From the IMG/VR virus record IMGVR_UViG_3300014846_000084: a stretch of DNA of 12,726 bases, one strand, 5' to 3'. Under the pieces are notes generated by a model that did no database searches, had not been told where the DNA came from, and was given only the letters and a program-made list of their open reading frames with translations. Shown here one piece after another: positions 1 through 9,480 of the stretch. This DNA comes from a virus (Duplodnaviria; Heunggongvirae; Uroviricota; Caudoviricetes). Both the position numbers and the translations under genes were made by a program. The stretch's first letter is position 1; each line of letters opens with the position of its first letter.

Positions 1-1230
1 ATGAGCAGAGCACTTAACAAACTGAGCGATACACAGCTGAGGAAAATCAACGGCACACCCGCCCAAAAAACAGCCTTTCTTAATGACGGTGGAAACCTGA
101 GCGTCAGGCATTCAACCAGCGGCCTTTTAACCTGGTATTTCACCTACAGGGCCGGAACGGGAAGGGGAGCACGACCGGAACGGATTAAGCTGGGAAATTA
201 TCCTGATCTGAGTCTGAAAGCTGCCAGGGAAAAAGCGGCACAGTGTCGCGCTTGGCTTGCTGAGGGGAAAAATCCACGTCATGAGATGAATTACACCGTA
301 CAGAAAGCGTTAAAGCCCGTAACGGTTGGCGATGCGCTTACCTACTGGCTTGAGTCTTACGTAAAGGAAAACCGCGTGGATTATGCCGCCCTGAAAAAGC
401 GCCTTAATAATCACGTAATACAGCACATTGGTGCTATGCCGCTGGATAAATGCGAGCTACGGCACTGGCTGGCCTGTTTTGACCAGGTGGCAAAGCGAAC
501 GCCTGTTACTGCCGGATTCTTGCTACAGACGTGCAAACAGGCGCTTAAGTTCTGCCGGAGGCGGCGCTATGCAATCAGCAACGTTCTTGATGATATGAGT
601 GTGGCGGACGTTGGGAAAAAACCGGATATAAGCGAGCGTGTCTTAAGCACCAAAGAACTTGGCGAATTATTGCAGGCACTGGACAAAAAAATATTTTCCC
701 CTTACTACGTCGCACTAATCCGCCTCCTGATTGTTTTTGGATGCCGGACGGTAGAACTGAGGTTATCGGAGATCAGCGAGTGGGATTTTACCGAAATGCT
801 CTGGACCGTGCCGAAAGAACACAGCAAAACGAAGGTGGCAATATTCCGGCCCATACCGGAAGCAATACTGCCGTTCGTCACGCAGCTGGTGGAGCAGAAC
901 AGGCACACGGGCTTATTGCTGGGGGAAGTGAAACAGGAAACAAGCGTGTCGCAGTACGGCAGATTAGCGCACAGGAGGCTAAAACACCCTCACTGGTCAC
1001 TGCATGACATCCGGCGCACCTTTACAACGATGCTGAACGATTTAGGCGTGGATCCTCACGTCGTGGAGCAGCTTACAGGTCATCAGATGCCAGGGATGCA
1101 ACGAGTCTATAACCATTCCCGTTATCTGGATGCGAAACGTGACGCGCTGGATATGTGGACGGAGCGGTTAGGGATACTGGCGGGAACACATGAAAACGTA
1201 ACCACATTGCCAATAGCCAGAGAAATATAA
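1..1230 (+). CDS. int: Tyrosine site-specific integrase, P4-like family (409 aa)
   Basis: Full-length ORF from the track. C-terminal catalytic motifs are readable in the translation: R in GCRTVELRL, H-x-x-R in SLHDIRRTF, Y in QRVYNHSRY. N-terminal region resembles the arm-binding domain of P4-type integrases. Upstream start context is outside the window. Confidence 0.9.
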   Translation: MSRALNKLSDTQLRKINGTPAQKTAFLNDGGNLSVRHSTSGLLTWYFTYRAGTGRGARPERIKLGNYPDLSLKAAREKAAQCRAWLAEGKNPRHEMNYTVQKALKPVTVGDALTYWLESYVKENRVDYAALKKRLNNHVIQHIGAMPLDKCELRHWLACFDQVAKRTPVTAGFLLQTCKQALKFCRRRRYAISNVLDDMSVADVGKKPDISERVLSTKELGELLQALDKKIFSPYYVALIRLLIVFGCRTVELRLSEISEWDFTEMLWTVPKEHSKTKVAIFRPIPEAILPFVTQLVEQNRHTGLLLGEVKQETSVSQYGRLAHRRLKHPHWSLHDIRRTFTTMLNDLGVDPHVVEQLTGHQMPGMQRVYNHSRYLDAKRDALDMWTERLGILAGTHENVTTLPIAREI

Positions 1231-1257
1231 TTTTTTTTGCGATTTTTCAGGATGCGG

Positions 1258-1315
1258 ACAACGTGAAACAACGAGACACAACGACGAACAACAAGGAACA
1301 AAATGGAACAACGGG
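1258..1315. repeat. Tandem array of six phased 10-bp repeats (consensus about ACGnGGAACA, ACAAC core every 10 bp) immediately 3' of int
   Basis: ACAAC at 1258, 1268, 1278, 1288, 1308 and the variant ACAAA at 1298, exactly 10 bp apart. Top strand is almost entirely A/C/G. Confidence 0.6.
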
Positions 1316-1595
1316 TTAAAAATCAGCCATCGTAATAACCATTTGATTTTTATAGGTGTACTGTTTTTTTATACACTGGCGAATCACTCTTAAAAATATG
1401 TAAAAAAGGCGTAAAAGTAAAATTTTATGCCTTTGCATCATAATGAATTAAAAGAGTTTTTATTCTCATTCCCCCTGCTTCTGTAAAACGACCGCCGCCA
1501 GTGTTTGCCATTCCACAAACACCCTGACACAATCCGACACAACCCAACCCAATAATCCACCCAATGACTCTTTAAGAAACAACAAAGGGGGAATT

Positions 1596-1784
1596 GTGTT
1601 AAGCACAGATCGCTTTATACGTGAAAAAGAATGTCAGCAACTTACAGGCCTGAGCCGCTCATGTCGGTACCGCCTGGAAAAAGCCGGACAATTCCCATCA
1701 CGGCGTAAGCTGGGCGGTCGTTCCGTTGGCTGGTCTTTATCCGAAGTTCTGGCATGGAAGGACAGCTGCGAGGCAGTTCACTAA
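1596..1784 (+). CDS. alpA: AlpA-family (Vis/excisionase-like) HTH transcriptional regulator, 62 aa, GTG start
   Basis: Translation LTGLSRSCRYRLEKAGQFP...GWSLSEVLAWK matches the AlpA/MerR-like winged HTH pattern. Strong SD (AAAGGGGGA) 5 to 8 nt upstream of the GTG at 1596. Confidence 0.85.
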   Translation: MLSTDRFIREKECQQLTGLSRSCRYRLEKAGQFPSRRKLGGRSVGWSLSEVLAWKDSCEAVH

Positions 1785-1836: not shown

Positions 1837-3039
1837 ATGAATACTGGATATTCTCCCGAACAAGGGCGGGGCTTCGTTCGTCCTGAAAAACAGAATCTGC
1901 AAAATTTTGCCGAAATTATTCCGGTTATTTCCGGCCTTACTGGCGGGAGTGAAACCAATATTGTTAACGCCAGAGCGTTGCAGATGTTTGATGATAAAAA
2001 GGGAGTAAATTTAACTTACACCCCTGACGGCAATCAGAATATGAGCATTATCTCTGAGTCAGGTTTCTACAAACTAATAAAAACAAAAAGCGCCCCGTTG
2101 CCGGAGCGCCTTTGTGAACAATTAACCTACTGCGCAAAAAATGAATCTGAGCAGTGGGATTATATCAACCATGTGGAGAAGCGCCACAATTGCCGAATAA
2201 CGGGCAAAACAAAGGCCACCCGCTACGGTGGCCCCTCGACACAAGCTACACGTTATCCCCAACGCATGAGCATTGCCAACAATGCCACATTTGCGGCTGG
2301 TGGGCAATGCAATCAGTCTGGTTCAGTTCGTTGCCATACCTGCAATGAGCGCTTTTCCCTGTACTCTTTAAGGAATTGCTCAAGGGCAAAAGCACATGGC
2401 GCGAATCTTTCTGATTCATGCTCTATCTTTCTGCGCCGTCTTTTCCGTGCCGGTGATAATGTTTTGGTCAATTCTTTATCGGTCATTGTGTTGTCCTGCA
2501 TAGCAATGCGCCGTAATACCTTACACCACGGCGCTGATGGTGATTACTCTGGTTCTTTGGTCTTGCGGCGCTGGAGTTCTTCACGTGCGACAGTGACGAG
2601 CTGCCCGATCTCCTCGGCGGCTTTGATTCCGAGTTTTTCCACCTGCGCCAGTGCATCGAGCGAAGAAACTAGGGGATTTTCTCCACTTCCTTCTGCCTGG
2701 CGCCGGGCGATCTCACCGCGTACAGCCGTAACTATAAAATTCGCTTTAGTTTCCCCTGGCTGTAGGGATGCCTCAATGCCACTCACTACTTCATGTGGAA
2801 ATCTGGCATTCAGTTGCTGTGACTTATTGTTAACAGAACTCCTGGACATGTTTGCACCTCCCATTAATAACGGGATGCAGTGTAATACAAAAGTGAATAC
2901 CAAAAAAGACTTGAAATGGTATTCACCTAAATGTAATGTGAATACCACAAGTGCTGATACATGCAATTCAGCAATTGAAACGACGAAGCCCCGCACTGTT
3001 GGAGCAGTAACGGGGCTTCTAACCAACAACGTAAACTAG
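1837..3039 (+). CDS. Hypothetical ORF with a Bro-N/KilA-N-like segment in the first ~110 aa. The 3' boundary is uncertain: the open frame runs 400 codons, but the distal two thirds look like non-coding antisense of the minus-strand regulator gene. Possible pseudogene or mis-extended ORF.
   Basis: N-terminal translation contains KGVNLTYTPDGNQNMSIISESGFYKLIKTKS, which resembles the conserved Bro-N core. From about residue 150 the composition turns S/C/R-rich and overlaps a well-supported gene on the opposite strand. Weak SD before the ATG at 1837. Confidence 0.3.
   Translation: MNTGYSPEQGRGFVRPEKQNLQNFAEIIPVISGLTGGSETNIVNARALQMFDDKKGVNLTYTPDGNQNMSIISESGFYKLIKTKSAPLPERLCEQLTYCAKNESEQWDYINHVEKRHNCRITGKTKATRYGGPSTQATRYPQRMSIANNATFAAGGQCNQSGSVRCHTCNERFSLYSLRNCSRAKAHGANLSDSCSIFLRRLFRAGDNVLVNSLSVIVLSCIAMRRNTLHHGADGDYSGSLVLRRWSSSRATVTSCPISSAALIPSFSTCASASSEETRGFSPLPSAWRRAISPRTAVTIKFALVSPGCRDASMPLTTSCGNLAFSCCDLLLTELLDMFAPPINNGMQCNTKVNTKKDLKWYSPKCNVNTTSADTCNSAIETTKPRTVGAVTGLLTNNVN
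2313..2486 (-). CDS. Possible small basic protein (57 aa, MTDKELTKTLSPARKRRRRK...), downstream of the RHH gene on the minus strand
   Basis: ORF in the track (2313..2501) trimmed to the second ATG, which has an AGGA about 8 nt upstream. Composition is protein-like but there is no recognisable family. Overlaps the open + frame of the preceding feature. Confidence 0.2.
   Translation of the reverse strand: MTDKELTKTLSPARKRRRRKIEHESERFAPCAFALEQFLKEYREKRSLQVWQRTEPD
2544..2849 (-). CDS. Ribbon-helix-helix (Arc/MetJ-like) DNA-binding regulator, about 101 aa; candidate island repressor
   Basis: Track ORF 2544..3029 trimmed to the internal ATG at 2849, which has a strong SD (GGGAGGTG) 5 nt upstream. 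N-terminal segment LNARFPHEVVSGIEASLQPGETKANFIVTAVRGEI fits an RHH beta-strand/helix pattern. Transcribed divergently from the downstream operon. Confidence 0.7.
   Translation of the reverse strand: MSRSSVNNKSQQLNARFPHEVVSGIEASLQPGETKANFIVTAVRGEIARRQAEGSGENPLVSSLDALAQVEKLGIKAAEEIGQLVTVAREELQRRKTKEPE
2893..2947. promoter_or_regulatory. Operator-like triple repeat GTGAATACCA (direct 2893-2902, inverted 2918-2927, direct 2938-2947) in the divergent intergenic region between the RHH gene and the 3048 operon
   Basis: Three exact copies of a 10-mer in alternating orientation, within about 55 bp, lying between two divergent start codons (2849 minus, 3048 plus). Confidence 0.5.
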
Positions 3040-3047
3040 GAGCCGTT

Positions 3048-3248
3048 ATGGTTGCCGTAAATCATATACCACACCTTGTACACACACAAACGGCCTTTGT
3101 GTGGCGTTTTCTGGCACTGAGTGCCGGAGAATCTCAAATCATCCACGTAACCGCCTGGACGGAACGCGAAGCGCGTAGCCGTTGCCCGTCAGGTTGTGTT
3201 GCTGTATTTGCCGCTCGTATTCGTCAGGGGAAAACCTATGCACAATAA
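3048..3248 (+). CDS. Hypothetical small protein (66 aa), first gene of a coupled operon leading to the primase
   Basis: AGGAG SD at 3038-3042, 5 nt before the ATG. Stop overlaps the start of the next ORF. Confidence 0.5.
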   Translation: MVAVNHIPHLVHTQTAFVWRFLALSAGESQIIHVTAWTEREARSRCPSGCVAVFAARIRQGKTYAQ

Positions 3249-3934: not shown

Positions 3935-4234
3935 ATGAAACTTAAATATTCTGGCTTAACTGCCAGTGGCAACACTCACCCTAAATTTACGCGCGGTGAT
4001 ATTTACCGCGACCAGTACGGCGGCACGGTAATGATTAAGGGCGTGGAGGAACGTCGCGTAACTTACCGCCGTGAAGGCTACGAATATGATTGCGTGATGC
4101 CTGTTTATCAGTTCGACCGTGATTTTTCTCTTGTGCAGGCCGTACCGCGTAACGTGCCCACCAGCAGGGAGAAAGCACGCGCCAATATTCAGAAGATGAA
4201 AACCATGATTAACGGATTCAGGGGTAAAAAATGA
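3935..4234 (+). CDS. Hypothetical protein (99 aa), translationally coupled to the primase gene (ATGA overlap)
   Basis: Track ORF with GGAGA SD upstream. Its stop overlaps the primase ATG at 4231. Confidence 0.6.
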   Translation: MKLKYSGLTASGNTHPKFTRGDIYRDQYGGTVMIKGVEERRVTYRREGYEYDCVMPVYQFDRDFSLVQAVPRNVPTSREKARANIQKMKTMINGFRGKK

Positions 4235-5985
4235 AACTGGCACCGAACGTAAAACAGCAGTCACGCGGCATAAAACACAAAGAAACAGAAGTCATTATTT
4301 TTGCGGGTAGTGATGCCTGGTCACACGCAAAACAATGGCAGGAACATGACGCGCGTATGGCCGGAGATAATGAGCCTCCTGTGTGGCTTGGGGAGCAGCA
4401 GTTATCCGAACTGGATAAGCTGCAAATTGTGCCGGAAGGCAGAAAATGCGTACGAATATTCAGGGCCGGACATCTTGCGCCAGTAATGATAAAGGCGATT
4501 GGTCAGAAGCTGGCGGCGGCTGGCGTACAGGATGCAAATTTTTATCCTGAGGGTATGCACGGCCAGGAGGTGCAGAACTGGCGCGAATATCTGGCCCGTG
4601 AGCGACAGAATCTTTCTGATGGTCTGGTCATTGAGCTTCCGGTAAAGCAAAAGGCGCAACTTTCTCAGATGGCGGACAGTGAGCGCGCGCAGCTGCTTTC
4701 CGGGCGCTTTGATGGCGTTTGCGTGCATCCTGAAAGTGAAATCGTCCACGTCTGGCGCGGCGGGGGATGGTGTCCGGTCAGCACAATGGAACTGAGCCGC
4801 GAAATGGTGGCGATCTATTCAGAGCACAGGGCCACTTTCAGCAAGCGCGTAATCAATAACGCCGTGGAAGCGTTAAAAGTTATTGCCGAACCAATGGGCG
4901 AGCCGTCCGGTGATTTACTGCCGTTCGCCAATGGTGCGCTTGACCTGAAAACGGGGGAATTTTACCCGCACACGCCGGAGAACTGGATCACCACGCACAA
5001 CGGCATTGAGTACACGCCACCAGCACCAGGGGAGAACATCCGCGATAACGCGCCAAACTTTCATAAATGGCTTGAGCACGCAGCCGGAAAAGACCCGCGC
5101 AAGATGATGCGTATATGTGCCGCGCTGTACATGATTATGGCGAACCGGTACGACTGGCAGATGTTTATTGAGGCCACCGGAGATGGCGGGAGCGGTAAAA
5201 GTACATTCACGCACATAGCCAGCCTTCTGGCAGGGAAACAGAACACGGTAAGCGCTGAAATGACATCGCTTGATGATGCTGGTGGACGTGCGCAGGTTGT
5301 CGGGAGTCGTCTTATCGTCCTGGCTGACCAGCCGAAATATACAGGCGAAGGAACGGGCATCAAGAAAATCACGGGCGGTGACCCTGTGGAAATTAACCCG
5401 AAATACGAAAAGCGTTTCACGGCTGTAATCAGAGCGGTGGTGCTGGCGACCAACAATAACCCGATGATATTCACCGAACGGGCCGGAGGTGTGGCACGTC
5501 GTCGCGTGATTTTCCGTTTCGACAATATCGTCAGTGAGGCCGAAAAAGACAGGGAGCTACCGGAAAAGATTGCGGCTGAAATCCCTGTCATTATCCGCCG
5601 ATTGCTGGCGAACTTTACCGACCCTGAGAAGGCACGGGCTTTACTACTGGAACAGCGTGACGGTGATGAAGCTCTGGCAATAAAGCAACAGACGGATCCG
5701 GTTATTGAGTTTTGCCAGTTCCTGAATTTTCTGGAGGAAGCACGCGGCCTGATGATGGGCGGCGGTGGCGATTCAGTGAAGTACACGACCAGAAACAGCC
5801 TTTACCGCGTCTATCTGGCGTTTATGGCGTACGCAGGCAGGAGCAAACCGCTAAACGTAAATGACTTTGGCAAGGCTATGAAGCCAGCCGCGAAAGTTTA
5901 CGGACATGAATATATTACGCGGAAAGTTAAGGGAGTAACGCAGACTAACGCAATAACAACAGACGATTGCGACGCGTTTTTATAA
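4231..5985 (+). CDS. Phage/plasmid primase-helicase, P4 alpha-like (D5_N plus P-loop NTPase C-terminal region), 584 aa; probable replication initiator of the island
   Basis: Walker A reads EATGDGGSGKST and a Walker-B-like RLIVLADQ follows. Overall size and layout match P4-family primase C-terminal domain proteins. The iteron array starts directly after the stop. Confidence 0.88.
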   Translation: MKLAPNVKQQSRGIKHKETEVIIFAGSDAWSHAKQWQEHDARMAGDNEPPVWLGEQQLSELDKLQIVPEGRKCVRIFRAGHLAPVMIKAIGQKLAAAGVQDANFYPEGMHGQEVQNWREYLARERQNLSDGLVIELPVKQKAQLSQMADSERAQLLSGRFDGVCVHPESEIVHVWRGGGWCPVSTMELSREMVAIYSEHRATFSKRVINNAVEALKVIAEPMGEPSGDLLPFANGALDLKTGEFYPHTPENWITTHNGIEYTPPAPGENIRDNAPNFHKWLEHAAGKDPRKMMRICAALYMIMANRYDWQMFIEATGDGGSGKSTFTHIASLLAGKQNTVSAEMTSLDDAGGRAQVVGSRLIVLADQPKYTGEGTGIKKITGGDPVEINPKYEKRFTAVIRAVVLATNNNPMIFTERAGGVARRRVIFRFDNIVSEAEKDRELPEKIAAEIPVIIRRLLANFTDPEKARALLLEQRDGDEALAIKQQTDPVIEFCQFLNFLEEARGLMMGGGGDSVKYTTRNSLYRVYLAFMAYAGRSKPLNVNDFGKAMKPAAKVYGHEYITRKVKGVTQTNAITTDDCDAFL

Positions 5986-5997
5986 TTTGTTGCAATG

Positions 5998-6225
5998 GCT
6001 GTCTACCCTGTCTACCTGAGTAAAGAAAAATACATTTAATTCAGTACATTAACTTAGGTAGACAGCCTTTTTTCACTGTCTACCTACTATCTACCCTCTC
6101 TACCTGATTTTACCTGAATCAGACAGGGAGGTAGATACGGGGTAGATAGTGGATAAAAGCACTCTACCCTACTGAAAGCCGCGCCATTACTGGCATGGTG
6201 GCCAGTAAGGTAGATAAGGTAGACA
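5998..6225. repeat. Iteron array, candidate origin of replication: about 12 copies of GGTAGA(C/T)A / T(G)TCTACC in both orientations flanking an AT-rich spacer
   Basis: CTGTCTACC at 5999-6007, 6008-6016 and 6076-6084; GGTAGACAG at 6057-6065; TCTACC at 6090 and 6099; GGTAGATA at 6130, 6141 and 6209; GGTAGACA at 6218. AT-rich stretch at 6018-6056. Confidence 0.6.
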
Positions 6226-6273
6226 AGGGGAGGCACAACTCAAAACTTTTTAAACGAGGGGGTAAAAATAAAA

Positions 6274-6853: not shown

Positions 6854-7015
6854 ATGGCTATCACAGAACGCGAGGCAAGCATCATTAAGGCCATTGGCGA
6901 GGAAACAAGAGACACCATAGCGCCATTGATGGAAAAGATCGCAGAGCTTGAGACACGAATAAACAAGCTGAGTAATGAAGTTGAAGGCCTGATCTCGTTA
7001 CTCGGTGAGCAATGA
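6854..7015 (+). CDS. Small predicted coiled-coil protein (53 aa, MAITEREASIIKAIGEETRDTIAPLMEKIAELETRINKLSNEVEGLISLLGEQ); absent from the ORF track, which appears to omit ORFs under 60 aa
   Basis: Translated by hand. ATG lies 4 nt after the upstream stop, with a GAGG about 9 nt upstream. Heptad-like charged/hydrophobic pattern. Confidence 0.4.
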   Translation: MAITEREASIIKAIGEETRDTIAPLMEKIAELETRINKLSNEVEGLISLLGEQ

Positions 7016-7143
7016 CATGGGGGGGAGTGTTCCGGCCGGAAAGTCGATCTCCCTGGACACCGCCCCCCGTCTCATTCGTAGAAAATTTTGCTTTTCAAAA
7101 AAGTTACACGAAAAGTTACACCCCCTCAAAACGAGGTTTTTGC

Positions 7144-7632
7144 ATGGCATTAACGACCAAAAAAAAGCGGTTTGCTGATGCGTTATCAAGGGGCGCAAAT
7201 CCCACGGAAGCCGCTATACATGCGGGATACAGCGAAAAGACCGCAAGGGTTAAAGGCTGGCAGCTATCCAACGATCCTGAGGTGAAAAAGTATCTTAAGG
7301 CTGTAACTCCTGATGTAACTTTTCAGGTTACAAAACCGAAAAAAGTTACAAAGAAAGTTACCGAAAAAGTTACACCGGAACGGGCATCAATTAACACCAT
7401 TGAGATGATGGATAACGGCCTACCCGACCCCATCAAAGCAATGGGCAGGATACTGATTGACAACATGGACACAGATCCAAAACTGGCTTTAGATGCCGCG
7501 TTTAAGCTGGCCCAGTTCACCCACCGCAAGATCGGCAGCATTGGGAAAAAAGAGGTTAAAAAACTCAATGCCGCTAGTGTCTCCTCAAATCGGTTCCCCA
7601 TCCCTAAGCCACCAACAGGCTTAAAACACTGA
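7144..7632 (+). CDS. terS: Terminase small subunit (TerS, Terminase_2-like), 162 aa
   Basis: Track ORF 7012..7632 trimmed to the internal ATG at 7144, which has a GAGG SD. N-terminus FADALSRGANPTEAAIHAGYSEKTARVKGWQLSNDPEV matches the conserved TerS HTH signature (AGYS..TA). The upstream 44 codons of the track ORF are GC-rich, structured, non-coding-looking sequence. Confidence 0.8.
   Translation: MALTTKKKRFADALSRGANPTEAAIHAGYSEKTARVKGWQLSNDPEVKKYLKAVTPDVTFQVTKPKKVTKKVTEKVTPERASINTIEMMDNGLPDPIKAMGRILIDNMDTDPKLALDAAFKLAQFTHRKIGSIGKKEVKKLNAASVSSNRFPIPKPPTGLKH
7303..7375. repeat. Cluster of six GTTAC/GTAAC pentamer-containing repeats spaced about 12 bp apart inside terS (encoding the repetitive KVT linker); candidate pac/TerS recognition site
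   Basis: GTAAC at 7303 and 7315; GTTAC at 7328, 7345, 7357 and 7369. Two further AAAAGTTACAC copies lie just upstream of the terS start (GTTACAC at 7103-7109 and 7115-7121). Confidence 0.45.
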
Positions 7633-7643
7633 GGTAGCGAACT

Positions 7644-7805
7644 ATGAGCGAATACATCACAGACCCTATTGATGTACTCACGGAAATCATGAACGACAAG
7701 CAGCAGTCGACCGAAATACGGTTACAGGCCGCCGCTATTCTGATGCCATATTTTCACGAAACACTAAACCCGTGCTTCCAAGAGGAGGAAGAAGATGATC
7801 TGTAA
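7644..7805 (+). CDS. Small acidic protein (53 aa, MSEYITDPIDVLTEIMNDKQQSTEIRLQAAAILMPYFHETLNPCFQEEEEDDL); absent from the ORF track
   Basis: Translated by hand. ATG at 7644 lies 11 nt after the terS stop, with a GAGG about 9 nt upstream. Its 3' end overlaps the start of the capsid-like gene by 11 nt. Confidence 0.4.
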   Translation: MSEYITDPIDVLTEIMNDKQQSTEIRLQAAAILMPYFHETLNPCFQEEEEDDL

Positions 7806-8718
7806 AAACATGAAAGGCGTGTCAGCAGTTCGCGCCGCCAGCGTGCTGGCATCGTGTAAATTTAGCCATGCTGACGCTATAGAGATGACGAAAAGAAATG
7901 ATCCGGCAGTATCGTTATTTCTTGAAAAATCCGTAGTAGCAGGAATGAACACGGATAACATGCCGTCGCTGGTGGCAGAGCCGATAGTAAGAGAGCTTGG
8001 CGAGTATATTTTTTCGCAGTCTGTACCAGGCAAGCTAATCAGCAGCGCGCTAAATCTTCCGTTTGGCGCAAAATTGCAGTCAATATCAGGCAAGGGTAGT
8101 AAATGGCTTAAAGAGGCCGAAGAAATCCCAGTCAAAGAGGGAGAAGTAAACGAAAGCGCGCTAAAACTGTGCAAACTCGGCGCTATTGTGATGCTGAATA
8201 ACGAGCTAATCAAATTTAGCACCCCTGGTACCAATTCAGCGATCAGAGACTTGATCACATCGGAATCGGTGAAAGAAATAGATAAAAAATTTCTTTCCAG
8301 TGACCAGGAGGTGGCTGGCGTATCCCCTGAGGGCGTGCTTAATGGTGCTGATGAGGCCGAAAACTTCATAGAGCTTTTCAAAAAGCACATAGCGAACGGT
8401 AACACGCTTGCCACGTCGTCGCTAATCTTGCCCGTAGAAAACGCCTTACAGCTTACTGATGCTGAGTTCTGGCAGATAGAGCTTTTGAGAATACCGGTAA
8501 TTGTGAGCGAACAGGCGGATCTCATGATGCTGATAGACGCTAAAAAGCTGATTATTAACGTTGAAGCCACGGTTATAACCCCAACTGATGAGGCGGTAAT
8601 AAAAACCGAATCAGGGACGGTTAGCCTTTTCCAGAATGACGCTACAGCGTTCATGGCAATCACCTATTGCGGATGGCAAAAACTCGATAAGGCCGTCACC
8701 GTTCTGGCGAAAAGCTGA
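7795..8718 (+). CDS. HK97-fold major capsid protein homolog (307 aa), putative; possibly a capsid-redirecting MCP paralog given the absence of other head genes
   Basis: AGGAGG SD 7 nt upstream of the ATG. The overall pattern, especially the C-terminal region (LRIPVIVSEQADLMMLIDAKKLIINVEATVITPT...SLFQNDATAFMAITYCGWQ), resembles HK97-type major capsid proteins. Assignment is by eye only. Confidence 0.55.
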   Translation: MICKNMKGVSAVRAASVLASCKFSHADAIEMTKRNDPAVSLFLEKSVVAGMNTDNMPSLVAEPIVRELGEYIFSQSVPGKLISSALNLPFGAKLQSISGKGSKWLKEAEEIPVKEGEVNESALKLCKLGAIVMLNNELIKFSTPGTNSAIRDLITSESVKEIDKKFLSSDQEVAGVSPEGVLNGADEAENFIELFKKHIANGNTLATSSLILPVENALQLTDAEFWQIELLRIPVIVSEQADLMMLIDAKKLIINVEATVITPTDEAVIKTESGTVSLFQNDATAFMAITYCGWQKLDKAVTVLAKS

Positions 8719-8732
8719 TTTTTCCGGCATCA

Positions 8733-8762
8733 ATCCCGATATGGTGATCCCCATATCGGGAT
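8733..8762. other. Perfect 12-bp inverted repeat hairpin (ATCCCGATATGG-tgatcc-CCATATCGGGAT) 15 nt after the capsid-like gene stop; possible weak terminator, RNA element or protein-binding site
   Basis: Arms at 8733-8744 and 8751-8762 are exact reverse complements. Followed by AT-rich sequence but not a clean T-run. Confidence 0.4.
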
Positions 8763-8805
8763 AATTACGAAATTTTCGCAGTTTAATAGCTGACCAGGTG
8801 GAGAA

Positions 8806-9087
8806 ATGACAGAAGCCGAAATACTGGGATTAATCCGCCGCGTTGCCGGAATCAGCAAGCAGGCCGACGAACAGGCCACGCAGCCGGACAGCGTGACCGC
8901 CGAAAATTATGTGCGTGTTGTTGCTGAGGTGATGCGCCGTGATGGTATCCAGCTTAATGATGTGGATATGCGCAACATACGGATCCGCGTTCTTGAAATG
9001 CTGGCCTACAATCGCCGCGTTGAACTGTATCGGGAGAAAGAAAAAATTACGTACCACTGGAAGAAGCCGGAGCGGTTACGGCGTTAA
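8806..9087 (+). CDS. Hypothetical protein (93 aa), last gene of the island
   Basis: Track ORF. AGGTGGAG SD at 8796-8803. Balanced, protein-like composition. Confidence 0.55.
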   Translation: MTEAEILGLIRRVAGISKQADEQATQPDSVTAENYVRVVAEVMRRDGIQLNDVDMRNIRIRVLEMLAYNRRVELYREKEKITYHWKKPERLRR

Positions 9088-9093
9088 CGAGTA

Positions 9094-9138
9094 GTGACAT
9101 ACCGTGACGGAGAGTGACAACCAGTGACACAACGTGAC
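9094..9138. repeat. Tandem array of five phased 10-bp repeats (GTGAC every 10 bp; consensus nnnGTGACAn) at the island terminus
   Basis: GTGAC at 9094, 9104, 9114, 9124 and 9134. Contains the octamer GACACAAC (9126-9133), which also occurs at 1275-1282 and 1536-1543. Confidence 0.6.
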
Positions 9139-9390
9139 AAAAAGACGGTATTTAAACAGGGGGAGTATTTAATACCCCTCCCACCAGCCTGATTAACATT
9201 TAACCGGAAAAAAAATCCGGTACCATGATGGCAGACGCTAGGGCAATCATTGCTGAAATTGCACACTTTTTAAGCAAATCATTTTAGTTATACGTTTGGT
9301 TATACGATTTAAAAGTTGAATCAAGCATATTTATTAAAATCATGTAGTTACACGCTAAATTAAACTACTCTCGTGCCAAAAATCCCAAGA

Positions 9391-9419
9391 AAAAACCAAC
9401 CCTTACGGTTGGTTTTTTT
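9391..9419. terminator. Bidirectional intrinsic terminator (AACCAACC-cttac-GGTTGGTT flanked by an A-run and a T-run); serves the convergent autotransporter gene and probably the island's rightward transcripts
   Basis: Perfect 8-bp stem (9394-9401 / 9407-9414) with a 5-nt loop, a T7 run on the + strand and an A-run upstream that gives a T-run on the minus strand. Lies about 60 nt past the autotransporter stop. Confidence 0.7.
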
Positions 9420-9480
9420 ATATCTGCAATTAATTCGATAAACAGACCGTGACACATCACAGCCTGTTTATTTTCTGTTA

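What the first reader, a model, noticed from the sequence alone, without database searches (positions are those of the whole stretch)
1510..1570. CA-rich repeats (CACAA / GACACAA at about 10-bp spacing, then CCCAA repeats) in the alpA leader
The region just upstream of the alpA RBS carries GACACAA at 1526-1532 and 1536-1542, then CCCAA-type repeats. These are related to the phased arrays after int and at the island end, which suggests autoregulation of alpA or a shared regulator.
Basis: seen in the sequence. Interest (0 to 1): 0.4.

Follow-up and report, generated by a model that had tools for sequence, protein, structure and literature searches.

The report
alpA promoter built from phased repeats
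The CA-rich repeats are real and form the core promoter and early leader of alpA, the master switch of a phage-satellite island; they are made of the same 10-bp unit that forms phased arrays beside the integrase gene, so they are most likely operator sites for an already known self-activation loop, which makes this a useful refinement and not a surprise.

Summary
GACACAA lies at 1526-1532 and 1536-1542, followed by AACCCAAT (1546) and CACCCAAT (1558). This is the most A+C-rich 60 nt of the window.

The window is a phage-inducible chromosomal island (PICI). Its int-alpA spacer differs from EcCICFT073 at one base. In EcCICFT073, AlpA was shown in 2018 to activate its own promoter on a fragment equivalent to 1198-1653.

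New here:
- The first repeat is the extended -10 (TGACACAAT). It lies 17 bp after an invariant TTGCCA, and that spacing survives 10/11-bp indels in diverged lineages.
- The units match the TGxAACAAYG unit of the exactly 10-bp-phased array after int. In relatives the same unit forms arrays in both att arms.
- The phased motif follows AlpA similarity, not Int similarity. An unrelated PICI has a different 10-bp-spaced heptamer in both its att arm and its alpA upstream region.

The GTGAC array at the island end is a different motif on a different module.

Best reading: the repeats are AlpA (Xis-type) operator units embedded in the alpA promoter. Binding is inferred, not shown. This is a new member of a known kind (TorI/KplE1, Vis and Cox at P4). 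Interest is modest.

The parts
1..1230 (+). int, a P4-type tyrosine integrase with an arm-binding N-terminal domain
   Evidence: Pfam PF13356, PF00589 and PF22022. The DNA of the whole island matches EcCICFT073 at about 97% over the aligned pieces. RefSeq annotates the same ORF in CFT073.
1254..1313 (+). Phased array after int: six 10-bp units of consensus TGxAACAAYG, with ACAA at 1258, 1268, 1278, 1288, 1298 and 1308
   Evidence: The 10-bp spacing is exact here and in 7 other lineages, each with 4-6 units. TRF gives period 10. Core positions are conserved and inter-core positions vary.
1405..1434 (+). Conserved terminator-like hairpin (AAAGGCGTAAAA / TTTTATGCCTTT) between the post-int array and the alpA promoter. 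It probably ends int transcription and insulates alpA.
   Evidence: The + strand RNA folds at -16.6 kcal/mol with z -5.5; the minus strand gives only -10.1 because the G.U pair becomes a C.A mismatch. One stem position reads G.T, G-C or A-T across lineages. The simple terminator scanner did not call it.
1505..1510 (+). -35 hexamer TTGCCA of the alpA promoter
   Evidence: It is the only sigma-70 match in 1150-1900. TTTGCCA is invariant in all 16 aligned spacers. It belongs to the top-scoring + strand promoter in each of 7 lineages.
1515..1545 (+). Three phased units that score positive with the post-int weight matrix: ACAAACACCCT (1515), TGACACAATCC (1525) and CGACACAACCC (1535). They span about -25 to +5 of the inferred promoter and are the proposed operator units.
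   Evidence: Unit scores are 4.8, 7.6 and 5.9 bits. The chain of three scores 18.2 bits, against a 95th percentile of 15.1 and a maximum of 23.2 for whole-window maxima of 100 shuffles. Phased hits at the homologous place are found in L009 (2 units) and L017 (3 units, 29 bits).
1525..1533 (+). Extended -10 element TG-A-CACAAT, which is the first GACACAA repeat
   Evidence: The spacer to TTGCCA is 17 bp. The L009 and L017 lineages carry 10/11-bp indels, yet each again has TTGCCA-17-AACAAT. In L009 the unit homologous to the second repeat has become the -10.
1540..1595 (+). Inferred 5' untranslated leader of alpA, about 56 nt. The start site near 1540 is inferred from the -10 and was not mapped.
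   Evidence: Inference from the promoter geometry. Leader length varies by whole units among lineages: 56, 55, 45 and 44 nt. The published working pBAD-alpA clone begins at 1537.
1546..1565 (+).
   Evidence: Unit 3 is RACNCAATAR in all lineages except L017, which lacks it, and CAATA is invariant among the others. In L009 the homologous unit is GACACAAT, scoring 6.6 bits. In the predicted RNA fold, unit 4 pairs with the AUUGUG start region.
1568..1589 (+). Small hairpin CUCUUU (1568-1573) / AAAGGG (1584-1589) that covers the Shine-Dalgarno GGGGG
   Evidence: It is in the minimum-energy fold of every lineage. In the window it is weak (-7.8 kcal/mol, z 0.1). It is significant in L008 (z -3.7). 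Non-homologous leaders of distant PICIs have analogous hairpins (z -3.4 to -5.5). L017 has CUCCA/UGGAG in its place.
1596..1784 (+). alpA (GTG start, 62 aa), an Xis/AlpA-family winged-helix regulator
   Evidence: Pfam PF05930, E 3e-18. It is 47% identical to P4 Vis. It matches PDB 8c3t, 'AlpA family phage regulatory protein'. RefSeq annotates the same ORF in CFT073.

Best explanation
The CA-rich block is the core promoter and first part of the leader of alpA. It is built from 10-bp units of the same motif (TGxAACAAY, variant GACACAAY) that forms an exactly phased six-unit array after int. In relatives the same motif forms phased arrays in both att arms, next to the doubled 12-mer that marks P4-type Int arm sites.

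The first unit doubles as the extended -10 (TGACACAAT, 17 bp after TTGCCA). The second spans the inferred start site near 1540. Units 3 and 4 are degenerate copies in the leader.

I infer that the units are operator sites for the Xis-type protein AlpA, which would line up on one face of the DNA as other excisionase-family proteins do. The same protein and motif would then serve excision (att arms) and the published positive autoregulation of alpA (promoter array and post-int array).

Status of each step:
- Shown here: the repeats, their phase, the conserved promoter geometry, and the shared motif at the other sites.
- Shown by others: AlpA activates this promoter fragment.
- Inferred: that AlpA is the protein that binds these units, and how sites over -10/+1 could give activation.
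For: Promoter:
- TTGCCA-17-CACAAT with a TG is the only sigma-70 match in 1150-1900.
- It is the best + strand match in each of 7 lineages.
- TTTGCCA is invariant in 16 spacers that are otherwise 67-100% identical.
- The 17-bp spacing is restored after 10/11-bp indels, and in L009 a different repeat unit serves as the -10.

Shared motif:
- The repeat finder groups 1519-1543 with the post-int copies.
- A weight matrix from the post-int arrays gives a phased three-unit chain of 18.2 bits at 1515-1545, the best outside the post-int array and above the 95th percentile of shuffled window maxima.
- Phased hits are also found at the promoter in L009 and L017.
- The same motif, inverted, forms two blocks upstream of int at -62 to -92 and -135 to -155. 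It also forms a three-unit array in the attR arm of relatives.

Which protein:
- The doubled 12-mers (GGTGTAGTTAAT twice) lie in both arms about 85 and 135 bp from the core, as do the annotated P4 'attP arm sequence repeats'. They account for the Int arm sites.
- The TGTT/AACA-type phased motif is kept where AlpA is 47-70% identical even though Int is only 23-24% identical (L020, P4). It is replaced by CACCGGA where AlpA is 28-42% identical (L027).
- In L027, CACCGGA pairs at exactly 10-bp spacing lie in the attL arm (2719/2729 and 2803/2813) and 25-35 nt upstream of alpA (4633/4643). The heptamer has 10 hits against 2.4 expected, reached by 0 of 100 shuffles.

Precedent and experiment:
- TorI, the excision directionality factor of KplE1, binds five GTTCG-type sites in two blocks on attL that overlap the int promoter (PMC2951348).
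- AlpA activates PalpA-lacZ on the fragment equivalent to 1198-1653 and is needed for excision (PMC6092414).
Against: - There are no binding data for any protein on this DNA.
- Sites that cover -10 and +1 would normally repress, whereas the published effect is activation. Activation may come from the post-int array or from something else on the 456-bp fragment.
- The statistical support in the window alone is marginal. The chain of three scores 18.2 bits while the shuffle maximum is 23.2, and the chain of two is not significant.
- In the L006 and L008 lineages only one unit at the promoter passes the matrix.
- Units 3 and 4 are poor matches.
- The motif is short and of low complexity, and part of it must be kept simply because it is the -10.
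- The argument that the motif follows AlpA and not Int rests on three comparisons.
- The start site is inferred, not mapped.
Confidence: 0.5

Rival explanations
1. RNA-level role. The C/A-rich, G/U-poor stretch is an unstructured 5' leader that acts as a translation enhancer or ribosome standby site. It could alternatively be a target for a GU-rich small RNA. alpA has a weak GUG start, and its Shine-Dalgarno and start codon sit in a small hairpin. The repetition would be incidental or would supply anti-start sequences.
For: - A+C is 0.83-0.86 from 1508 to 1567, the highest in the window, and all lineages keep this composition.
- Every lineage folds a hairpin over the SD. Distant PICIs have strong non-homologous SD hairpins with z -3.4 to -5.5.
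- Unit 4 pairs with the AUUGUG start region in the predicted folds, and ACACAAU is the exact complement of AUUGUGU at 1593-1599.
- The working pBAD-alpA clone kept the leader from 1537.
Against: - If the start site is near 1540, the two GACACAA units are not in the RNA.
- The leader loses whole units in the L009 and L017 lineages.
- Conservation looks like a motif (ACNCAAT) and not like composition alone.
- The same motif, with the same phase, occurs in untranscribed att arms.
- The window's SD hairpin is no better than shuffles (z 0.1), and the whole leader has z -0.3.
- No Rfam family matches.
Confidence: 0.2
2. The units are binding sites, but for a protein other than AlpA. Candidates are the arm-binding domain of Int, or a helper-phage protein that switches alpA on, in the way helper P2 Cox activates the P4 late promoter in front of vis.
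For: - The motif is in both att arms, and sites in both arms are typical of Int arm sites.
- Helper phages induce alpA transcription through an unidentified factor (PMC6092414).
- P4 carries three 10-bp-phased repeats upstream of vis that match the Cox box consensus TTAAAGNCA; the consensus is from my own knowledge.
- The lambda X1 core TGTTGTGTTTTA contains the reverse complement of ACACAAC.
Against: - The doubled 12-mers already fit the P4-type Int arm sites in number and distance from the core.
- The phased motif follows AlpA similarity, not Int similarity.
- AlpA alone, without any helper, activates the promoter fragment.
Confidence: 0.15
3. There is no function beyond the promoter. A 10-bp slippage duplication of the -10 region produced the second GACACAA, and the CCCAA copies are decayed duplicates. 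The resemblance to the other arrays would be a by-product of A/C-rich composition.
For: - TRF score is only 35.
- The number of units differs between lineages by whole 10/11-bp steps.
- Single units are common by chance: the matrix gives 20 hits at 8 bits or more against 14 expected in the window.
Against: - At least one unit 10 bp downstream of the -10 is kept in all four diverged lineages.
- CAATA of unit 3 is invariant in 15 of 16 spacers.
- An unrelated PICI independently has a 10-bp-spaced pair of its own att-arm heptamer in front of alpA.
Confidence: 0.15

Closest known systems
EcCICFT073 alpA promoter and AlpA positive autoregulation (Fillol-Salom et al. 2018, PMC6092414)
   Same: The DNA is the same: there is one mismatch in the 641 aligned bases covering the end of int, the spacer and alpA. 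Their PalpA-lacZ insert equals window 1198-1653 and so contains the repeats. AlpA in trans activates it, and helper phages lambda and phi80 induce it.
   Different: That work did not map the promoter, the start site or any operator. The repeat units, their phase and their copies at the att arms are described here only. The window's island is also a mosaic with a different right half.
KplE1 prophage: TorI (excision directionality factor) and IntS sites on attL overlapping the intS promoter (PMC2951348)
   Same: A small Xis/AlpA-type protein binds several short direct repeats (GTTCG, GATCG, GTCCG). They are arranged in two blocks in the arm next to int, and the sites overlap a promoter and regulate it. 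The PICI arm arrays have a GTTC/TTGTT core and the same two-block layout.
   Different: TorI represses int. In the PICI the published effect of AlpA is activation of its own gene, with no effect on Pint. TorI is not detectably similar in sequence to the PICI AlpA profile. No TorI sites are reported at the torI gene itself.
Satellite phage P4: late promoter PLL in front of vis, with P2 Cox boxes and Vis; attP with doubled arm repeats
   Same: Vis is 47% identical to this AlpA. vis is the first gene after a regulated promoter preceded by three 10-bp-phased repeats. attP has doubled 12-mers in both arms plus a TTGTTGTG-type tract beside them. From my own knowledge, Vis is both excisionase and regulator of its own promoter.
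   Different: From my own knowledge, Vis represses PLL, whereas AlpA activates PalpA. Also from my own knowledge, the phased repeats at PLL are Cox boxes for the helper's protein (TTAAAGNCA), a different motif that lies upstream of the promoter and not over the -10/+1.
Lambda Xis filament on X1-X1.5-X2
   Same: A winged-helix excisionase binds adjacent direct repeats on one face of the DNA. The X1 core TGTTGTGT is the reverse complement of ACACAACA, close to the unit GACACAAC. The placement of X1 is from my own knowledge.
   Different: It belongs to a different Pfam family. Its sites lie in one att arm only and have no known role at its own promoter. The resemblance is a lead, not a test.
Pseudomonas aeruginosa AlpA, a Q-like antiterminator loaded at an element inside the promoter (PMC7969949, PMC9371919)
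   Same: It is a small predicted winged-helix protein called AlpA. It acts positively through a DNA element that lies within the core promoter of its target.
   Different: There is no detectable sequence similarity to the PICI AlpA profile, even at E 10. Its element lies between -35 and -10, whereas that spacer is poorly conserved here. No intrinsic terminator was predicted between the alpA promoter and alpA.
C/A-rich translational enhancers and GcvB target sites in enterobacterial 5' leaders (own knowledge)
   Same: A C/A-rich, G/U-poor stretch lies directly upstream of a ribosome-binding site.
   Different: If the inferred start site is right, the best CACAA units lie upstream of it. Pairing with GcvB was not tested. 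The tract next to the SD (AAACAACAAAG) is not conserved in other lineages.

Membership tests
Sigma-70 promoter | -35 and -10 hexamers close to consensus with a 16-18 bp spacer | tested here: met
   TTGCCA-17-CACAAT preceded by TG matches 9 of 12 positions and is the only hit in 1150-1900. It is the top score in 7 lineages.
Sigma-70 promoter | Hexamers and spacing conserved while the spacer sequence drifts | tested here: met
   TTTGCCA is invariant in 16 spacers. Four different spacer sequences are all 17 bp long, and the spacing is restored after 10/11-bp indels.
Sigma-70 promoter | Mapped transcription start and promoter activity | not testable with these tools
   Promoter activity of the 1198-1653 equivalent is published (primers). 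No start-site data were found.
Operator array of an Xis/AlpA-family excisionase-regulator (TorI, Vis, Cox, lambda Xis type) | A protein of that family is encoded by the element | tested here: met
   alpA matches PF05930 at E 3e-18 and is 47% identical to P4 Vis.
Operator array of an Xis/AlpA-family excisionase-regulator (TorI, Vis, Cox, lambda Xis type) | Several short direct repeats in helical phase | tested here: met
   The post-int array has an exact 10-bp phase over 6 units. The promoter units are spaced 10, 10, 10 and 12 bp.
Operator array of an Xis/AlpA-family excisionase-regulator (TorI, Vis, Cox, lambda Xis type) | The same motif is present in the att arm(s) where the factor directs excision | tested here: met
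   This is met in relatives that carry the same int and alpA: two blocks upstream of int and three units in the attR arm. It cannot be seen in the window itself, because attL lies outside it and the right arm is of another type.
Operator array of an Xis/AlpA-family excisionase-regulator (TorI, Vis, Cox, lambda Xis type) | The motif changes when the protein changes | tested here: inconclusive
   The motif follows AlpA identity and not Int identity in L020, P4 and L027. This is only three comparisons, and in L027 both proteins differ.
Operator array of an Xis/AlpA-family excisionase-regulator (TorI, Vis, Cox, lambda Xis type) | Demonstrated protein-DNA binding | not testable with these tools
   No footprint or gel-shift data were found in the literature library.
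Q-like / P. aeruginosa AlpA-type antiterminator loading site | The protein is homologous to P. aeruginosa AlpA | tested here: not met
   A profile of 14 PICI-type AlpA sequences finds only 8c3t (and a weak unrelated chain) in the PDB at E up to 10. The P. aeruginosa AlpA chains are not found.
Q-like / P. aeruginosa AlpA-type antiterminator loading site | An intrinsic terminator downstream of the promoter that the factor overrides | tested here: not met
   None is predicted between 1540 and alpA. There is only a weak terminator-like site inside alpA at 1715-1732. The strong hairpin at 1405-1434 lies upstream of this promoter.
C/A-rich translational enhancer or small-RNA target | The element lies in the transcribed leader | tested here: inconclusive
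   With the inferred start near 1540, units 3-4 are transcribed and the two GACACAA units are not. The start site is not mapped.
C/A-rich translational enhancer or small-RNA target | Base-pairing partner or measured effect on translation | not tested
   No small-RNA pairing calculation was made, and no expression data are available.
Known RNA family (Rfam) | Match to a curated covariance model | tested here: not met
   There are no matches at gathering score in the whole window, and none at E up to 1 in 1200-1900.

The most novel reading that the evidence does not exclude
The phased ACAAY units (the post-int array plus the promoter units) may be the docking site through which the helper phage switches the island on. 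On this reading the helper's own excisionase-type protein binds them and activates alpA, as P2 Cox activates the P4 promoter in front of vis. For lambda this would be Xis, whose X1 core TGTTGTGT is the reverse complement of ACACAACA. This would identify the still unknown helper-encoded inducer of Gram-negative PICIs, with AlpA then taking over the same sites for self-amplification.
Probability: 0.07. Interest if true: 0.75.

Novelty: new member of a known kind. Interest (0 to 1): 0.35.

Why it matters
AlpA is the master switch of Gram-negative phage-inducible chromosomal islands, which move virulence and defence genes between enterobacteria. It is known to activate itself and to be turned on by helper phages, but neither its promoter nor its operator has been mapped.

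This analysis gives a concrete promoter (TTGCCA 1505-1510, TGACACAAT 1525-1533) and a concrete candidate operator unit. The same unit is found at the att arms, which suggests that one protein and one motif couple excision with induction.

That turns a vague 'autoregulation' into a short list of point mutations and footprints to test. It also narrows where to look for the helper's input. If the inference is wrong, the promoter assignment and the repeat map remain useful for annotation.

Tried and rejected
- Rfam, whole window at gathering score and 1200-1900 at E up to 1: nothing.
- RNAalifold on the hairpin at 1405-1434: no structure, because MAFFT shifted one clade by a base. I replaced it with single-sequence folds.
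- One scan of species-representative genomes with AlpA returned only three loci, two of them unrelated elements.
- The word-indexed protein search returned only close relatives. Four of them were used to fetch more distant PICIs.
- Literature: no paper cites PDB 8c3t. A search for the helper inducer returned mostly noise. One search failed because a term was too short.
- Single-site matrix scanning does not discriminate: 20 hits against 14 expected. Only phased chains are informative.
- The IHF consensus at 1336-1348 is the only match in the window, but 0.81 matches are expected by chance. I therefore do not claim it.
- I considered a sigma-dependent promoter-proximal pause caused by the second repeat acting as a -10-like element. 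I rejected it because CACAAC lacks the T at the last position and the downstream copies lack the A at position 2.
- I considered a Rho loading site. I put it aside because only about 30 nt of C-rich, G-poor RNA would be transcribed.
- I considered a minus-strand small RNA ending at the hairpin. I put it aside because the stem is weaker on that strand in this lineage and no conserved minus-strand promoter stood out.
- GcvB pairing was considered but not computed. The tract nearest the SD is not conserved.
- A promoter for the unrelated PICI L027 could not be assigned with confidence.

Full report
**What the window is**

The window is a phage-inducible chromosomal island (PICI). It encodes:
- an integrase (1-1230);
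- AlpA (1596-1784, GTG start, Pfam PF05930);
- a P4/D5-type primase (4231-5985), followed by origin-like iterons;
- a small-terminase-like protein and a capsid protein.

About 64% of the first 9.5 kb matches EcCICFT073 of strain CFT073 at about 97% identity. The end of int, the int-alpA spacer and alpA differ from CFT073 at one base in 641.

**The observation**

- GACACAA lies exactly at 1526-1532 and 1536-1542, and CCCAA at 1543, 1548 and 1560.
- Read in register there are four units: GACACAAT, GACACAAC, AACCCAAT and CACCCAAT at 1526, 1536, 1546 and 1558. A weaker unit lies at 1515.
- Tandem Repeats Finder gives period 10, 2.8 copies and score 35.
- GACACAA occurs 5 times against 1.67 expected.
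- The stretch 1508-1567 is the most A+C-rich 60 nt of the window.

Taken alone this is modest. The weight of the case comes from relatives.

**What is already known**

Fillol-Salom et al. 2018 (PMC6092414) reported the following for EcCICFT073:
- AlpA is required for induction and transfer of the island.
- AlpA from pBAD activates a PalpA-lacZ fusion but not a Pint-lacZ fusion.
- Induced lambda or phi80 lysogens switch alpA transcription on, and the helper factor is unidentified.

Their primer table shows that the PalpA insert equals window 1198-1653 and that the pBAD-alpA insert starts at 1537. No promoter, start site or operator was mapped. I found no later paper that maps them.

**Comparative data**

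The 370-bp spacer is found in 878 complete E. coli genomes, at 67-100% identity where the whole spacer aligns. I fetched 15 further copies that span this range and aligned them with the window. Four lineages are distinct enough to be informative: the window group, L008, L009 and L017.

**The promoter**

- TTGCCA (1505-1510), a 17-bp spacer, then CACAAT (1528-1533) preceded by TG is the only sigma-70 match between 1150 and 1900.
- It is the best + strand match in the spacer of each of seven lineages.
- TTTGCCA is invariant in all 16 sequences.
- The four lineages have four different spacer sequences, all 17 bp long.
- The L009 lineage lacks 10 bp and the L017 lineage lacks 11 bp, yet each again reads TTGCCA-17-AACAAT. 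In L009 the unit homologous to the window's second repeat has become the -10, and the former -10 has decayed.

I take this as good evidence that this is the alpA promoter. On that reading the first GACACAA is its extended -10, the second spans the start site near 1540, and units 3 and 4 lie in a leader of about 56 nt. The start site itself is an inference.

**Relation to the array after int**

- Downstream of int, ACAA recurs at 1258, 1268, 1278, 1288, 1298 and 1308.
- All eight lineages examined have four to six such units at exactly 10-bp spacing, with consensus TGxAACAAYG.
- The repeat finder had already placed 1519-1543 in this family.
- A weight matrix made only from post-int units gives 4.8, 7.6 and 5.9 bits at 1515, 1525 and 1535.
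- The phased chain of three scores 18.2 bits. That is the best in the window outside the post-int array and above the 95th percentile (15.1) of whole-window maxima in shuffles, though below the shuffle maximum of 23.2.
- The homologous promoter region has two phased hits in L009 and three in L017, the latter summing to 29 bits.
- L014 carries the 11-mer TGACACAATCA both in its post-int array and at its -10.

**The att arms**

In relatives with the same int, the same motif lies inverted upstream of int in two blocks, at -62 to -92 and at -135 to -155 from the int start. A three-unit array lies in the right arm. Both sit next to a doubled 12-mer, GGTGTAGTTAAT twice. A 31-bp segment containing this doublet is identical in both arms, and the 10-bp core is GGACATATTT. 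The doublets lie about 85 bp to one side of the core and 135 bp to the other. This is the layout of the annotated 'attP arm sequence repeats' of P4 and of the doubled motif described for other PICIs (PMC10111431). The doublets thus account for the Int arm sites. That leaves the phased short repeats for an accessory protein.

**Which protein binds the phased units**

Four lines point to AlpA.
1. AlpA is an Xis-family protein, 47% identical to P4 Vis, and is required for excision.
2. In KplE1 the directionality factor TorI binds five GTTCG-type sites in two blocks on attL that overlap the int promoter (PMC2951348). The PICI arm units have a GTTC/TTGTT core and the same two-block layout.
3. The motif type follows AlpA and not Int.
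   - L020: Int 24% identical, AlpA 64% identical. It keeps CTGTTTC twice at 10-bp spacing beside a different doublet.
   - P4: Int 23%, Vis 47%. It keeps TTGTTGTGTTTT beside its own doublet.
   - L027: Int 24%, AlpA 28-42%. It has a different heptamer.
4. In L027 that heptamer, CACCGGA, forms pairs at exactly 10-bp spacing twice in the attL arm and once 25-35 nt upstream of alpA. It has 10 hits against 2.4 expected, a count reached by none of 100 shuffles.

The architecture 'att-arm motif repeated in phase in front of alpA' has therefore arisen with two unrelated motifs. This is suggestive, not proof: there are only three comparisons and no binding data.

**An unresolved point of mechanism**

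Sites over -10 and +1 usually repress, yet AlpA activates the fragment. Three possibilities remain open:
- Activation works from the post-int array, about 230-285 bp upstream of the inferred start, across an AT-rich stretch.
- The promoter units help RNA polymerase at a weak -10.
- The promoter units give negative feedback at high AlpA levels.

I cannot choose among these.

**The island-end array**

The array at 9094-9138 is GTGAC five times at 10-bp spacing. Its constant part is GTGAC, whereas the other arrays keep ACAAY constant. Only one unit (GACACAAC, 9126) coincides. The array follows the 93-aa ORF in L005, L006, L008 and L027 but is missing from the right ends of CFT073, L009 and L011, which have the same alpA region. 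In the window it belongs to the right half of a mosaic. From the terminase-like gene to yejO the window matches a proL/yejO-type PICI (L027), including that type's doubled 12-mer at 9283-9311 and a core-like CTCTCGTGCC near 9375.

**The RNA-level alternative**

For this reading:
- The leader is C/A-rich and G/U-poor in all lineages.
- A small hairpin, CUCUUU 1568-1573 with AAAGGG 1584-1589, covers the Shine-Dalgarno sequence in every lineage.
- Unit 4 pairs with the start region in the predicted folds.
- Distant PICIs have strong, non-homologous hairpins at the same place.

Against it:
- In the window the hairpin is no better than shuffles (z 0.1).
- The two GACACAA units lie outside the inferred transcript.
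- Whole units are dispensable in two lineages.
- The same motif occurs in untranscribed arms.

I keep this as a secondary reading. The two readings could both be true.

**Other features of the spacer**

A conserved hairpin at 1405-1434 folds at -16.6 kcal/mol (z -5.5) on the + strand. One stem position reads G.T, G-C or A-T across lineages. It most simply ends int transcription ahead of the alpA promoter.

A second, weaker conserved promoter-like site, TTTATA-17-TACACT (1349-1377), lies just upstream of the hairpin. Its meaning is open.

**Comparison with what is known, and verdict**

The element works like the operator arrays of multifunctional excisionase-regulators: TorI at KplE1 attL/PintS, Vis and Cox at P4, and lambda Xis on X1-X2. 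It is not a member of the P. aeruginosa AlpA antiterminator system. The proteins share no detectable sequence similarity, and no terminator follows this promoter.

The autoregulation is known. The promoter assignment, the unit, and its recurrence at the att arms are, as far as I could find, new detail. I rate this a new member of a known kind, of modest interest.

Noticed in passing
window 7012-9480 compared with L027 (E. coli ZH48, proL-yejO site): The island is a mosaic. int, alpA and their spacer are of the roxA/EcCICFT073 type. The right half (terminase-like gene, capsid, 93-aa ORF, right arm and the flanking yejO) matches a PICI integrated at tRNA-Pro, which has an unrelated Int (24% identical) and AlpA (28% identical). 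A roxA-type Int facing a proL-type right arm probably cannot excise. No complete E. coli genome in the collection has one place covering 80% or more of the first 9480 bases.
   Followed up: partly
window 9094-9138: GTGAC occurs five times at exactly 10-bp spacing, directly after the 93-aa ORF. The array is present in L005, L006, L008 and L027 but absent from the right ends of CFT073, L009 and L011. It could be a packaging site or the site of a protein encoded by that module.
   Followed up: partly
window 9283-9311 and about 9370-9385: A doubled 12-mer (TTAGTTATACG / TTGGTTATACG; TRF period 12, score 42) lies about 85 bp before a copy of the tRNA-Pro 3' end (CTCTCGTGCC). The same 12-mer occurs four times next to int in L027. 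It fits the arm sites of the proL-type integrase.
   Followed up: partly
window 1405-1434: A conserved hairpin lies between int and the alpA promoter (+ strand -16.6 kcal/mol, z -5.5). The G.U pair makes it stronger on the + strand in this lineage. An A run before it and a T run after it give it the look of a two-way terminator. The simple terminator scanner did not call it.
   Followed up: partly
window 1349-1377: A second conserved promoter-like site, TTTATA-17-TACACT, sits in a strongly conserved block (TACAYTRGCGAATCAC). A transcript from it would meet the hairpin after about 30 nt, giving an RNA of roughly 55 nt or an attenuated leader.
   Followed up: no
window 1336-1348: TAACCATTTGATT matches the IHF consensus in reverse orientation (YAANNNNTTGATW) between the post-int array and the promoter. 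It is the only match in the window, but 0.81 matches are expected by chance.
   Followed up: yes
window 2893-2946: Operator-like repeats: GTGAATACC at 2893-2901 and 2938-2946, and the inverted copy GGTATTCAC at 2918-2926. They lie in the divergent region between a minus-strand YlcI/YnfO-like gene and the Icd-like ORF at 3048. This may be a second regulatory node of the island.
   Followed up: no
window 1837-3039: The 400-aa + strand ORF has no Pfam match and overlaps minus-strand ORFs. In the homologous regions of relatives RefSeq annotates small minus-strand genes (YlcI/YnfO family) or + strand pseudogene fragments. In this window the long ORF is probably not a real gene.
   Followed up: partly
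window 5999-6230: Iterons (CTGTCTACC / GGTAGA family, direct and inverted) lie directly after the primase gene. This is the likely replication origin of the island.
   Followed up: no
L018 2962-3000, L022 2439-2475, L020 2962-2995: Distant PICIs have strong, non-homologous hairpins that bury the alpA Shine-Dalgarno sequence (-15.7 to -19.1 kcal/mol, z -3.4 to -5.5). This suggests that translational control of alpA is widespread.
   Followed up: partly
L028 (P4) 4130-4150 and L025 (lambda) 184-197: The P4 attP arm and the lambda Xis X1 site share the 12-mer TGTTGTGTTTTA. Its reverse complement contains ACACAAC, the repeat unit studied here.
   Followed up: partly
window 7097-7376: AAAGTTACAC-type repeats (family D2/D3 of the repeat finder) lie inside the terminase-like ORF, and a further copy lies at 9346 in the right arm.
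   Followed up: no
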